NCBI GenBank assembly: GCA_964486045.1
Contig: CAZALK010000011.1
Coordinates: forward strand, 64,001 to 128,000
DNA from: an uncultured archaeon
Lineage (GTDB): Archaea > Asgardarchaeota > Lokiarchaeia > Sigyniarchaeales > SOKP01
Reading direction: 5' to 3'
Length of the DNA stretch: 64,000 bases
Part shown: piece after piece, positions 19,781-30,930 of the stretch
Layout of the letters: every line of letters begins with the position of its first letter
Position numbering within the stretch: the stretch's first letter is position 1
Notes under the pieces: model-generated
What the model saw: the letters and a program-made list of their open reading frames with translations, nothing else
Database searches by the model: none
What the model was told of the DNA's origin: nothing
Position numbers and translations under genes: made by a program

Positions 19781-20110
19781 ATTGTCAATTACAACGGAAC
19801 TTTTTTTGCCTTAAACCTCTATGGTGAAATACCAGATTGTAGAGTTTTTTTACAAATATATTCCTTTTTATCCAATGTAATCACATCTCTTTGTTAATTT
19901 TTTGCTTTTTAATCACTTTAATTTATTTGTAGTATATTTGATATTAGAATTCTACCATATTAATATTAATTCTATTTTTTAAAATATCTACGGATTTTCA
20001 TTTACAAGTTAATAGTTCTATATCTTTATCTTTTATTGTTTTTTTCTTTAAAGAAGCTGTTAATAAATCTTATATGAAATTATACATTAAGCAAAAATAA
20101 AAATTATATC

Positions 20111-29165: not shown

Positions 29166-29434
29166 TTATCTTTCCAATTGGAAGTTGACTTGAACTCTCA
29201 CTCTATTCACAAGCTACACGAAAAGTGTCTCTTTATATATGAGCTTGTCAACATCCTCTTTAACTTTAACGTCCGATTCAATTATCTGAATATTTCTAAT
29301 TCCACGTAAAGTTTTTTTAGCTTCTTCATATGCGTTTTTAGTTGAATAAAACATGAGTATTTTTATCCTTTAACCGCATCTGCCCAATTTTTTTCACTAG
29401 TTGATACTAATTGAATTGACTTATAAACTGGCAT
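29166..29434 (-). CDS. Dodecin (flavin-binding protein), split into three exons: 29434-29370, 29337-29235, 29204-29166
   Basis: Joined exons (65+103+39=207 nt) give MPVYKSIQLVSTSEKNWADAVKNAYEEAKKTLRGIRNIQIIESDVKVKEDVDKLIYRVRVQVNFQLER*, fitting the dodecin pattern VYK.I.LV..S...W.DA..NA...A.KTLR.I...YRV....F.LE. Confidence 0.88.
29205..29234 (-). other. Putative BHB-type intron 2 (30 nt) in dodecin
   Basis: GCTC-ATAT-AT^A-AAG..ACAC-loop-GTGT..CTT-GTGA-AT^A-GAGT; contains an in-frame TAG. Confidence 0.75.
29338..29369 (-). other. Putative BHB/BHL-type intron 1 (32 nt) in dodecin
   Basis: GGTT-AA^A-GGATAAAA-loop-TTTTATTC-AACT-AA^A; shifts frame and contains an in-frame TAA. Confidence 0.8.
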
Positions 29435-29646
29435 TCTAGATCACTTTTTTTTTAATATTTTTGGATGTTAATATGTTTTTTTGTAAGATAATTTGTTATA
29501 GGGTACTATTTAAATATTTCTTAGAAAACTCATAATCCTAAAAATTTATAATGAGAAAATATAATCTCATTGATATTATCTTAAATCTAGAAAAAATCAA
29601 AAAAAAAATTGAAAAGTGAATATAATTGTTATCAATAATTCAATGA

Positions 29647-30930
29647 TTAAGCGTCGAGGTTTTCGATTAATGTTGCGACACCCTGACCACCTCCGACACA
29701 AGCATTAGCAACGCCGTATTTTGCTTTCTTATCTTTAAGTATTCGTGCTAATGTGCCTGGTAATCTTACCATTGTTGAGCCCAACGGATGACCAATTGCT
29801 GTTGAGCCTCCCATTACGTTGACTCTCTCTTCTGGAATATTGAAAGCTTTCATACAATTTAATGCTACGATACAGAAAGCCTCGTTAATTTCCCAGTAAT
29901 CTATATCATCAGCAGTCAAACCAGCATATTTTAAAGCTTTTTCAGATGCAGGTACAGGACCTCTACCCATAACAGTGGGATCTACACCTGAAAAACCAAT
30001 TGAAACGATTCTAGCCATCGGCTCAATACCTCTTTGTTTTGCTTCTTCTGCTTCCATTAATAAACAAGCTGTTGCACCAGCATTCAATGGAGAGGAATTC
30101 CCTGCGGTGATAACTCCTTCCTTAGTGCCTTCTCGCTTCTCATAGCCCTCTTTTCCTCCATTTTGTTCTAAAAAGAATGGTCTTGATAACCTACGTAATC
30201 CTGCAACACCTTCTAAAGTAGATTTTCTTGCCGCCATATCCCTATCAATCATCATCTTTTCTTCAACATTTCCCTCAACATGACCTTCAATAGGAATAAT
30301 TTCACCTTTAAACCATCCTTTTTCAGTATTTTCTACTGTTAAATTATGAGCTCGCACACCAAATTTGTCCATATCTTCTTTGGTGAATGCAGGAACTTCT
30401 TGTTCATAAAGTTTTTGAGCTGTTTGAATCATATTACTTGTTGTCAAGAAGTCTTGCCGTGGGCGATACCATTCGCTCTTTTTATCGATTATTTTTAAGT
30501 TTGGAGTGATGTGTGTGTTTTGCATACTAACACGGGTCATATGCTCCACACCAGTTGATAATACACATTTACTAAATCCAGTCATGATTTCCATGATGCC
30601 CATATGCATCCCTGCTCCTGCGCTCCCACATTGTTTATCAAGAAACACTGAGGAAGCTCTAAATGGCATATCGGCTAAAAATGCAGGGGTTCTGCCGCCA
30701 TAACTCCAGTTTTCGCCAACACCCATTGCACTTCCAACAGTGATTTCATCGACATCCTCTTTAGTAATGCCCTTATCTGCAAGTTTTCCCTCAAAGAATT
30801 TTAATAATAGTGTGCCAAGAAGTTCATCTCCACGGATCTCGCCAAAAACATCACGTTCTGGTTGTCTTGGTCTGGATCGCGAAAAAGCGGTTCTCGCATA
30901 ATCAATCATCCATACTTCTTTTAAGTCCAT
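29647..30930 (-). CDS. Acetyl-CoA acetyltransferase (thiolase)
   Basis: KQCGS, TAGNSS, EINEAF, GHPLG, CVGGGQG. Confidence 0.95.
   Translation of the reverse strand: MDLKEVWMIDYARTAFSRSRPRQPERDVFGEIRGDELLGTLLLKFFEGKLADKGITKEDVDEITVGSAMGVGENWSYGGRTPAFLADMPFRASSVFLDKQCGSAGAGMHMGIMEIMTGFSKCVLSTGVEHMTRVSMQNTHITPNLKIIDKKSEWYRPRQDFLTTSNMIQTAQKLYEQEVPAFTKEDMDKFGVRAHNLTVENTEKGWFKGEIIPIEGHVEGNVEEKMMIDRDMAARKSTLEGVAGLRRLSRPFFLEQNGGKEGYEKREGTKEGVITAGNSSPLNAGATACLLMEAEEAKQRGIEPMARIVSIGFSGVDPTVMGRGPVPASEKALKYAGLTADDIDYWEINEAFCIVALNCMKAFNIPEERVNVMGGSTAIGHPLGSTMVRLPGTLARILKDKKAKYGVANACVGGGQGVATLIENLDA

What the first reader, a model, noticed from the sequence alone, without database searches (positions are those of the whole stretch)
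29338..29369. Dodecin intron 1: 32-nt bulge-helix-loop-type motif
Sense RNA reads AUGC-GGUU-AA^A-GGAUAAAA-(AUACUCAUG)-UUUUAUUC-AACU-AA^AAAC-GCAU. It has an 8-bp inner stem, a 3-nt AAA bulge, a 4-bp central helix GGUU/AACU and a larger 3' bulge before an AUGC/GCAU exon stem. Canonical cuts rejoin GCG GUU AAA AAC GCA (A-V-K-N-A). The relaxed 3' side suggests a broad-specificity endonuclease (inference). The A-runs make the exact junction ambiguous from sequence alone, but the removed length of 32 fits.
Basis: partly seen in the sequence, partly recalled or inferred. Interest (0 to 1): 0.8.

Follow-up and report, generated by a model that had tools for sequence, protein, structure and literature searches.

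The report
tRNA-type mini-intron inside dodecin gene
A 32-base hairpin that breaks the small dodecin gene of this Asgard archaeon has the RNA shape that the tRNA-splicing enzyme cuts, and comparison with relatives strongly suggests it is a spliced intron in a protein-coding gene, which has been proven in archaea for only one other gene (cbf5).

Summary
On the minus strand, a 68-codon dodecin gene (29434..29166) is interrupted at 29369..29338 by a 32-nt insert that carries a TAA and shifts the frame.

Removing exactly these 32 nt gives A-V-K-N-A and an unbroken full-length Pfam Dodecin match. About 35 same-genus genomes carry this sequence uninterrupted.

The same insert sits at the same codon in two other species genomes and four distinct metagenome contigs. 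In these alleles:
- the exons are under strong purifying selection (dN/dS 0.03-0.12, dS 0.5-1.5);
- the insert diverges three times more slowly than third codon positions;
- one change in the 4-bp central helix is compensated.

The fold is a relaxed bulge-helix-bulge of the HBh' type. The 5' bulge, central helix and 8-bp inner stem are canonical. The outer exon helix is displaced by 3 nt.

The genome encodes a catalytic EndA with the crenarchaeal-type specificity loop, a His-less EndA paralogue and RtcB.

Within the genus this 204-nt gene carries such inserts at six different sites, all with the same geometry. No RNA data could be found, so splicing remains inferred.

This scan has noted similar mini-introns in other Asgard and DPANN genomes. 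I found no publication on them for Asgard protein genes.

The parts
29370..29434 (-). Dodecin exon 1: ATG 29434 through the first two bases of the Lys22 codon. It encodes beta-strand 1 and the first half of the helix.
   Evidence: ORF list and sequence. Matches Dodecin profile positions 1-20. Orthologues are about 85-94% identical.
29441..29444 (-). GUGA ribosome-binding motif, 6 nt upstream of the ATG.
   Evidence: Read from the sequence. AGTGA/GGTGA is conserved at this position in the orthologue alignment.
29338..29369 (-). Intron 1, 32 nt, the finding itself: last base of the 5' bulge, 8-bp inner stem with a 9-nt loop, 3' strand of the central helix (AACU), and the first two bases of the 3' bulge.
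   Evidence: Absent to the exact nucleotide from about 35 intact orthologues. Present at the same site in G013, G049 and metagenome loci L073, L074/L075, L079, L080. Pairing counted. Diverges at 0.11 per site against 0.35 at third codon positions.
29372..29375 (-). 5' strand of the central 4-bp helix H (GGUU, exon 1). It pairs with AACU at 29343-29340.
   Evidence: Four of four pairs in all six distinct alleles. GGUC/GACU in G013 is a compensated change. The Ala20 and Val21 codons are fixed as GCG GTT/GTC in intron-bearing alleles but vary freely in intronless ones.
29330..29333 (-). 3' strand of the displaced outer exon helix (GCAU). It pairs with AUGC at 29379-29376 and is separated from the 3' bulge by 3 extra unpaired bases (AAC).
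   Evidence: One allele (L080) breaks one of the four pairs, so this helix is the least supported element.
29235..29337 (-). Dodecin exon 2: third base of the Lys22 codon through Tyr56.
   Evidence: Matches Dodecin profile positions 21-48. Colinear with orthologues.
29205..29234 (-). Intron 2, 30 nt, with an in-frame TAG. The same geometry, with a well-formed outer helix GCUC/GAGU and a weak central helix AUAU/GUGA.
   Evidence: Absent from orthologues. Shared with metagenome locus L080, where U.G becomes U-A in the central helix. Geometry tabulated.
29166..29204 (-). Dodecin exon 3 (RVRVQVNFQLER plus TAA).
29647..30930 (-). Thiolase gene immediately upstream. It is a conserved neighbour and served as the phylogenetic marker for the locus.
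   Evidence: ORF. Syntenic in 60 related loci. Tree.

Best explanation
The 32 nt at 29369..29338 (minus strand) are an archaeal bulge-helix-bulge intron in the pre-mRNA of the genome's only dodecin gene.

In the transcript, the last bases of exon 1 (GGUU) pair with the 3' end of the intron (AACU) to form the 4-bp central helix. An AAA bulge and an 8-bp intron hairpin follow on the 5' side. On the 3' side there is an A-rich bulge whose outer exon helix is displaced by 3 nt, which makes this a relaxed HBh'-type motif.

The heterotetramer-type splicing endonuclease (catalytic EndA with the L1/CSL loop plus a non-catalytic paralogue) would cut after the second base of each bulge. RtcB would then join the exons to give GUU-AAA-AAC (V-K-N).

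Together with removal of a second 30-nt intron, this yields a normal 68-aa dodecin.

Shown here: the structure, the exact colinearity with intact orthologues, selection on exons and intron, and the presence of the enzymes. Inferred: that cleavage and ligation actually occur, and at which phosphodiester bonds.
For: 1. Exact excision restores the gene. Exon 1 matches profile positions 1-20 and exon 2 matches 21-48. The spliced product scores 63 bits over positions 1-64 in one stretch.

2. Of 46 same-genus genomes with the gene, about 35 have it uninterrupted and colinear with the spliced form, at 85-94% identity.

3. A homologous 32-nt insert lies at the same codon in G013, G049 and four distinct metagenome contigs.

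4. Among the six distinct intron-bearing alleles, dN/dS is 0.03-0.12 at dS 0.5-1.5. The coding sequence on both sides has therefore stayed under selection.

5. The intron diverges at 0.11 per site, against 0.35 at third codon positions, and most changes fall in the loop.

6. The central helix shows a compensated U-A to C-G change, and 97.9% of cells are paired, against 35-42% when the partners are slid.

7. The synonymous positions of Ala20 and Val21 that form the exon half of the motif are fixed in intron-bearing alleles (GCG in 5 of 5). In intronless alleles they are free (GCG in 5 of 40).

8. Five further insertion sites in the same gene in other species have the same h-H-B-h' geometry. At each, the canonical cut reproduces the conserved protein. 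At site A the cut splits a codon, and only the canonical cut gives the conserved Asn16.

9. The required enzymes are encoded. One EndA is catalytic and carries the Lys-bearing L1/CSL loop. A second EndA paralogue has Ser in place of the catalytic His. RtcB is intact. PMC5829648 ties this arrangement to cleavage of relaxed motifs.

10. This is the only dodecin match in a 99%-complete genome.

11. DNA contigs from other samples carry the insert, so it is not an assembly artefact.
Against: - There is no RNA evidence of any kind.
- Folding energy is not better than shuffled sequence (z = -0.6).
- Formal covariation for this intron is thin. There is one compensated pair and one G.U/A-U change. There are also two uncompensated breaks: an inner-stem C.A in G013 and an outer-helix A.A in L080. 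In the shuffle control, 82 of 500 shuffles reach the observed score.
- The outer helix does not stack directly on the 3' bulge, so the 3' cut site is not in a canonical 3-nt bulge.
- The high similarity of the intron among diverged alleles could partly reflect recent lateral spread or recombination instead of selection. The neighbour-gene tree needs at least 3 changes for its distribution, and G019/G049 have near-identical thiolases but very different dodecin alleles.
- The G013 allele starts with ATA, which may mean that copy is decaying.
Confidence: 0.85

Rival explanations
1. The gene is a pseudogene. A small hairpin-forming insertion (or two) inactivated dodecin, and nothing removes it.
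For: The insert carries a stop and shifts the frame. One allele with the insert (G013) has ATA in place of the start codon. No RNA evidence of removal could be obtained.
Against: Six distinct intron-bearing alleles have saturated synonymous divergence (dS 0.5-1.5). Even so, they keep intact exons, with dN/dS 0.03-0.12 on both sides of the insert. The insert is itself conserved three times better than third codon positions. Eleven of 46 genomes carry such inserts at six sites, with no other lesion in the gene. It is the only dodecin in the genome.
Confidence: 0.05
2. The insert stays in the mRNA and is handled by the ribosome. This would be either a -1 frameshift at GUU-AAA-G, giving an 11-aa insertion, or translational bypassing from the AAA take-off codon to the downstream AAA, as in phage T4 gene 60.
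For: The exon-2 frame is open through the whole insert in the three species-genome alleles inspected by eye (own, G013, G049). AAA occurs at both ends, a stop follows closely, and a hairpin lies just downstream, which formally resembles a bypass or frameshift site.
Against: The frameshift product breaks the Dodecin match into two stretches and lowers the score to 48 bits. It would also insert 11 residues into the middle of helix 17-31. There is no X XXY YYZ slippery heptamer. The sister inserts cannot be explained this way. Sites A, C and D are in frame and carry one or two stops. At site A the junction splits a codon, so a matched take-off and landing pair cannot give the conserved Asn16. Site D has no matching landing codon. 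Changes in the insert follow stem and loop, not codon positions.
Confidence: 0.03
3. The insert is removed from the RNA, but not by EndA and RtcB. The agent would be another nuclease and ligase, a guide-RNA-dependent activity, or excision linked to a mobile-element mechanism.
For: The 3' half of the motif is non-canonical. All inserts share strikingly uniform A-rich boundaries (A-N^A), and some are flanked by 4-8 nt direct repeats (site E). This could point to a dedicated insertion and excision system.
Against: The geometry is met at all six sites: a 4-bp helix flanked by two bulges on opposite strands, with cuts after the second bulge base. That is exactly the EndA substrate definition (PMC2738675). 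The required enzymes are present. No other copy of the insert exists in the genome.
Confidence: 0.06
4. The insert is an assembly or sequencing artefact.
For: The genome is a metagenome-type assembly with 7.8% estimated contamination.
Against: Contigs from a second sample (X2, spanning the whole stretch) and from a different study (X5, 29219-29403, no gaps) carry the insert. Independent assemblies of other species and metagenomes carry it at the same site.
Confidence: 0.01

Closest known systems
cbf5 pre-mRNA intron of Crenarchaeota (Aeropyrum, Sulfolobus, Desulfurococcales; Watanabe 2002; Yokobori 2009, PMC2738675)
   Same: Both are short introns inside a protein-coding gene, bounded by a mostly relaxed bulge-helix-bulge motif. 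Both have predicted cuts between the second and third bulge bases. In both lineages the endonuclease is hetero-oligomeric with relaxed specificity. Both show patchy gain and loss among related species.
   Different: The gene (dodecin) and the lineage (an Asgard genus) differ. The cbf5 intron sits at one conserved site in the catalytic Asp codon. Here a 204-nt gene carries inserts at six sites within one genus and two in one genome. Splicing of cbf5 was shown by cDNA and in vitro cleavage; here it is inferred.
Non-canonical (HBh'-type) tRNA introns of Crenarchaeota/TACK and Asgard archaea, cut by (alpha-beta)2 EndA with the L1/CSL loop (PMC3241643, PMC5829648; bioRxiv 10.64898/2026.10.13.758758)
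   Same: The motif architecture, intron size range and predicted enzyme are the same. ARAGORN finds only 31 tRNA genes in this genome and reports an intron in 20 of them. That fits the heavy tRNA interruption reported for Asgard archaea.
   Different: The host RNA is an mRNA, so the exon half of the motif is coding sequence, and this constrains synonymous sites. No tRNA body is available to help recognition.
Dodecin family (Pfam PF07311), small flavin-binding beta-alpha-beta-beta proteins
   Same: The spliced product matches the full profile. A 93%-identical intact orthologue is predicted to fold as E3-13, H17-31, E39-50, E53-66.
   Different: Nothing unusual in the protein itself. The interruption of the gene is the novelty.

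Membership tests
Archaeal EndA-dependent (bulge-helix-bulge) intron | [quoted passage not shown] | tested here: met
   H is GGUU/AACU with 4 of 4 pairs. The 5' bulge AAA lies between H and an 8-bp h'. The 3' bulge is A-rich, but the outer helix h is offset by 3 nt, so the motif is relaxed HBh' and not strict.
Archaeal EndA-dependent (bulge-helix-bulge) intron | Cuts after the second base of each bulge give a functional, in-frame junction | tested here: met
   AA^A and AA^A remove 1+25+4+2 = 32 nt and give GUU-AAA-AAC (V-K-N), as in intact orthologues. This was tested in silico only.
Archaeal EndA-dependent (bulge-helix-bulge) intron | Structure maintained in evolution (covariation or conservation) | tested here: inconclusive
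   One compensated pair in H, one G.U/A-U change and two breaks; 82 of 500 shuffles reach the covariation score. Conservation is clear: 0.11 against 0.35 at third positions. Exon-side synonymous sites are fixed.
Archaeal EndA-dependent (bulge-helix-bulge) intron | Host encodes a splicing endonuclease able to cut relaxed motifs, and an RtcB-type ligase | tested here: met
   Two EndA paralogues were found. The one at L070:1168-1770 is catalytic, and its Lys59 aligns with A. pernix Lys44. The one at L071:1207-1806 has His replaced by Ser. RtcB matches at 557 bits.
Archaeal EndA-dependent (bulge-helix-bulge) intron | Spliced RNA (and usually a circular intron) detectable; cleavage by EndA in vitro | not testable with these tools
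   No RNA run holding the locus could be listed.
Dodecin (PF07311) | Full-length match to the family profile above the curated cut-off | tested here: met
   63 bits against a cut-off of 22.5, profile positions 1-64 of 64, after removal of both inserts. Unspliced DNA gives only sub-threshold fragments.
Repeated mobile element (MITE-like) | Multiple similar copies in the genome | tested here: not met
   blastn-short of both inserts against the 5.18-Mb genome finds only the inserts themselves; the next-best matches are 16 nt or a 21-nt stretch with mismatches.

The most novel reading that the evidence does not exclude
Endonuclease-spliced mini-introns are being gained and lost actively in protein-coding genes of this Asgard genus.

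A 204-nt gene carries them at six different sites in 11 of 46 species, and up to two per gene. All have the same A-N^A boundaries, and the 3' end of each intron is complementary to the exon bases just upstream of the insertion point. Some are flanked by 4-8 nt direct repeats.

That would imply a still unknown insertion mechanism, for example reverse splicing or integration guided by pairing with the target. It would operate on mRNA genes in the closest prokaryotic relatives of eukaryotes.
Probability: 0.4. Interest if true: 0.85.

Novelty: new member of a known kind. Interest (0 to 1): 0.68.

Why it matters
Endonuclease-dependent splicing of a protein-coding mRNA has been demonstrated in archaea only for cbf5. 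PMC2738675 states that there was no confirmation for any other gene. I found no paper describing such introns in Asgard protein genes.

If this reading is right, three things follow:
1. Gene callers silently miss or truncate real genes in Asgard genomes. The six-frame Pfam search of this genome found no dodecin at all.
2. The tRNA-splicing machinery of the closest archaeal relatives of eukaryotes routinely processes mRNAs.
3. The presence and absence of introns at six sites in one tiny gene offers a tractable natural system for asking how such introns are gained.

Tried and rejected
- RNA evidence: no RNA holder was listed for the locus in either search. Only DNA contigs could be laid.
- Folding energy as a test: z = -0.6, which is not informative in this A+U-rich context.
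- Genome-wide count of such introns. I scanned for the structural motif (4-bp H plus a 5-bp h', introns of 20-60 nt) and added an ORF-fusion criterion. This gave 102,868 motif hits. ORF fusion was equally frequent at the canonical cut (9,364) and at cuts shifted by +1 (9,725) or +2 (9,869). The approach therefore cannot separate introns from short intergenic hairpins between tandem genes, and I abandoned it. A homology-based census is needed.
- Repeat or mobile-element family: no second copy of either insert in the genome.
- Rfam: only two tRNAs in the window, and nothing at the locus.
- Relationship between the site-B and site-E introns. Both follow GGUUAA and end in AACUAA, but their inner hairpins are not alignable by eye, so no common origin could be shown.

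Full report
**What is in the sequence**

The window is part of contig 11 of a 5.18-Mb, 30% G+C, 99%-complete genome. The genome encodes several eukaryote-like actins (441 and 421 bits to Pfam Actin) and two Snf7/ESCRT-III proteins. It is therefore an Asgard (Loki-type) archaeon.

On the minus strand an ATG at 29434, preceded by a GUGA ribosome-binding motif, opens a frame reading MPVYKSIQLVSTSEKNWADAVK. After one more codon the frame runs into TAA. Thirty-two bases further on, in another frame, the text continues NAYEEAKKTLRGIRN...

It has an 8-bp stem GGAUAAAA/UUUUAUUC closing a 9-nt loop and an AAA bulge 5' of it. A 4-bp helix GGUU/AACU forms between the end of exon 1 and the 3' end of the insert. 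An A-rich stretch AAAAAC lies 3' of that, and an AUGC/GCAU exon-exon stem lies outside. RNAfold finds the inner and outer stems, but the energy is unremarkable (z = -0.6). Structure prediction alone proves nothing here.

**Is it one gene?**

- Exon 1 alone hits Pfam Dodecin positions 1-20 and exon 2 alone hits 21-48. The two pieces abut in the profile exactly at the insert.
- With this insert and a second 30-nt insert (29234..29205, in-frame TAG) removed, the 68-aa product matches the whole profile in one stretch. It scores 63 bits, E 3.2e-17.
- A six-frame search of the genome finds no other dodecin.

**Relatives**

In 54 genomes of the same genus, 46 have the gene, always just downstream of the same thiolase. 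About 35 carry it uninterrupted, at 85-94% identity to the spliced product. Nucleotide alignment shows they lack exactly the 32 nt and the 30 nt.

A homologous 32-nt insert sits at the same codon boundary (Lys22/Asn23) in two other species genomes, G013 and G049. It is also in metagenome contigs L073, L074/L075, L079 and L080, and L080 shares intron 2 as well. DNA contigs from a second sample and from a separate cold-seep study carry the insert too, which excludes an assembly artefact.

**Is the interrupted gene still working?**

- Among the six distinct intron-bearing alleles, synonymous divergence is near saturation (dS 0.5-1.5). Non-synonymous divergence is 0.03-0.09, giving dN/dS of 0.03-0.12. 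A gene dead since the insertion would not look like this.
- The insert differs at 0.11 per site between alleles. Third codon positions differ at 0.35, and first plus second positions at 0.06. Most changes in the insert lie in the loop.
- The exon bases that form the 5' half of the motif are frozen in intron-bearing alleles. Ala20 is GCG in 5 of 5 distinct contexts, against 5 of 40 in alleles without the intron. Val21 is GUU, or GUC in G013, where the partner in the intron has changed from A to G.
- Formal covariation is modest. There is one compensated pair, one G.U/A-U alternation and two uncompensated breaks. Overall 97.9% of cells are paired, against 35-42% for slid partners, and 82 of 500 shuffles reach the covariation score.

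**Geometry and cut sites**

The order along the RNA is: exon helix h, central helix H (4 bp), bulge, intron helix h', loop, h', H, bulge, h. This is the topology of a tRNA intron at position 37/38.

The archaeal endonuclease cuts between the second and third bulge bases (PMC2738675). Applying that rule removes 1 + 25 + 4 + 2 = 32 nt and yields GUU-AAA-AAC. The A runs make four junctions equivalent in this genome. In L080 the 5' bulge reads AAU, so keeping the universally conserved Lys22 requires that at most two of these three bases stay in the exon. That fits the canonical cut.

The 3' side is not canonical, because three extra unpaired bases separate the bulge from the outer helix. In addition, one allele breaks a pair of the outer helix. 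The motif is best described as HBh'.

**The same rule holds at five other sites**

Other species of the genus carry 30-34-nt inserts at Gly11/Thr12, Lys15/Asn16, Val46/Lys47 and Lys53/Leu54. This genome and L080 carry one at Tyr56/Arg57.

All have a 4-bp H (4 of 4 pairs at five sites, 3 of 4 at the sixth). All have bulges of the form A-N^A and A-N^N, and an intron hairpin. In every case the canonical cut reproduces the conserved protein. At Lys15/Asn16 the junction splits a codon, and only the canonical cut gives the conserved Asn. The plain alignment gap would give Ser.

Orthologous inserts at the same site in distant species differ in sequence but keep the stems. At Val46/Lys47 the stem is UUGGG/CCCAA in one and AAGG/CCUU in another. 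At Lys53/Leu54 it is AUCU/AGAU against CUCU/AGAG.

This pattern argues strongly against ribosomal explanations such as frameshifting or bypassing. The -1 frameshift product at this site would put 11 residues into the middle of helix 17-31 and lowers the family score to 48 bits.

**Enzymes**

The genome has two EndA paralogues.
- The first keeps the catalytic Tyr/His/Lys. Its closest solved relatives are the alpha subunits of the heterotetrameric enzymes of Aeropyrum pernix and Sulfolobus tokodaii. It aligns Lys59 with A. pernix Lys44 in the specificity loop.
- The second has Ser in place of the catalytic His.
- RtcB is intact.

PMC5829648 reports that Asgard archaea have the (alpha-beta)2 enzyme with this L1 loop. 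It also reports that the loop's lysine confers cleavage of relaxed HBh'/hBH motifs. ARAGORN finds only 31 tRNA genes and reports an intron in 20 of them, so the genome has a heavy intron load (compare).

**History**

On a tree of the neighbouring thiolase, all holders of this intron fall in one well-supported clade of 17 (99/96). Three intronless genomes are nested among them, and the distribution needs at least three changes. G019 and G049 have nearly identical thiolases but very different dodecin alleles, one without and one with the intron. Recombination at the locus therefore blurs the history. Neither insert has another copy in the genome.

**Comparison with what is known**

The closest precedent is the cbf5 intron of Crenarchaeota. 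It is the only archaeal mRNA intron with experimental proof, and it is also mostly relaxed in motif and patchy in distribution. The present case is a new gene in a new lineage, and it has many polymorphic sites in one tiny gene.

I found no publication on such introns in Asgard protein genes. Earlier notes of this scan describe similar mini-introns in other Asgard and DPANN genomes. I did not test those.

**Verdict**

- Observation: confirmed.
- Interpretation: supported by comparative evidence. I put the probability that this is an EndA/RtcB-spliced intron at about 0.85. The missing piece is RNA.
- Class: a new member of a known kind.
- The six-site polymorphism is the most interesting by-product.

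Noticed in passing
L069 (G047), L027 (G004), L067 (G048), L062 (G061), L066 (G043), L026 (G016), L061 (G046); sites aligned: Within one genus the 204-nt dodecin gene carries 30-34-nt hairpin inserts at six different codon positions. Eleven of 46 genomes are affected, and G000 and G048 have two each. All inserts share the same helix-bulge geometry and A-N^A boundaries.
   Followed up: yes
L062 and L067, insert at Val46/Lys47: The insert is flanked by an 8-nt direct repeat (UAAAGAAG). L066 has 4-5 nt at the same site, and site B in G049 has AAAG. These could be target-site duplications or traces of how the inserts arise.
   Followed up: partly
window 19811-19845 (minus strand): A 35-nt insert after a 10-codon exon (TTG at 19875) fits a canonical motif when read by hand. 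The outer helix is UUUGU/GCAAA and the central helix is AAAA/GUUU. The bulges are AAA and AAG, and the inner stem is CUCUA/UAGAG. Canonical cuts leave an open frame. Earlier first-reader notes assign the gene to PAC2. I made no homology check.
   Followed up: partly
L028 (G013) and L065 (G049), start of the dodecin gene: The G013 allele has ATA where the others have ATG, and G049 has GTG. ATA may be a near-cognate start or a sign of decay in that copy.
   Followed up: no
L065/L079 (G049), 3' end of the dodecin gene: A 20-nt tandem duplication (CCAATTAGAG plus a 10-nt spacer, then CCAATTAGAG again) changes the C-terminus to ...QLEV. L080 ends ...QLESQT.
   Followed up: no
whole genome G000: ARAGORN finds only 31 tRNA genes and reports an intron in 20 of them, some of them doubtful calls. 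This suggests many tRNA genes are too interrupted to detect, as a 2026 preprint reports for Asgard archaea.
   Followed up: no
window 29204-29250, run X2: The strain in a second sediment sample matches the region of intron 1 with no listed difference (32 further differences were not shown). It differs by many substitutions and small indels across intron 2 and the adjacent exon, so that part of the gene is polymorphic between co-occurring strains.
   Followed up: no
G019 (L013) versus G049 (L085): The two genomes have nearly identical thiolase genes but very different adjacent dodecin alleles, one without and one with intron 1. This suggests recombination or allele replacement at this small gene.
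   Followed up: partly
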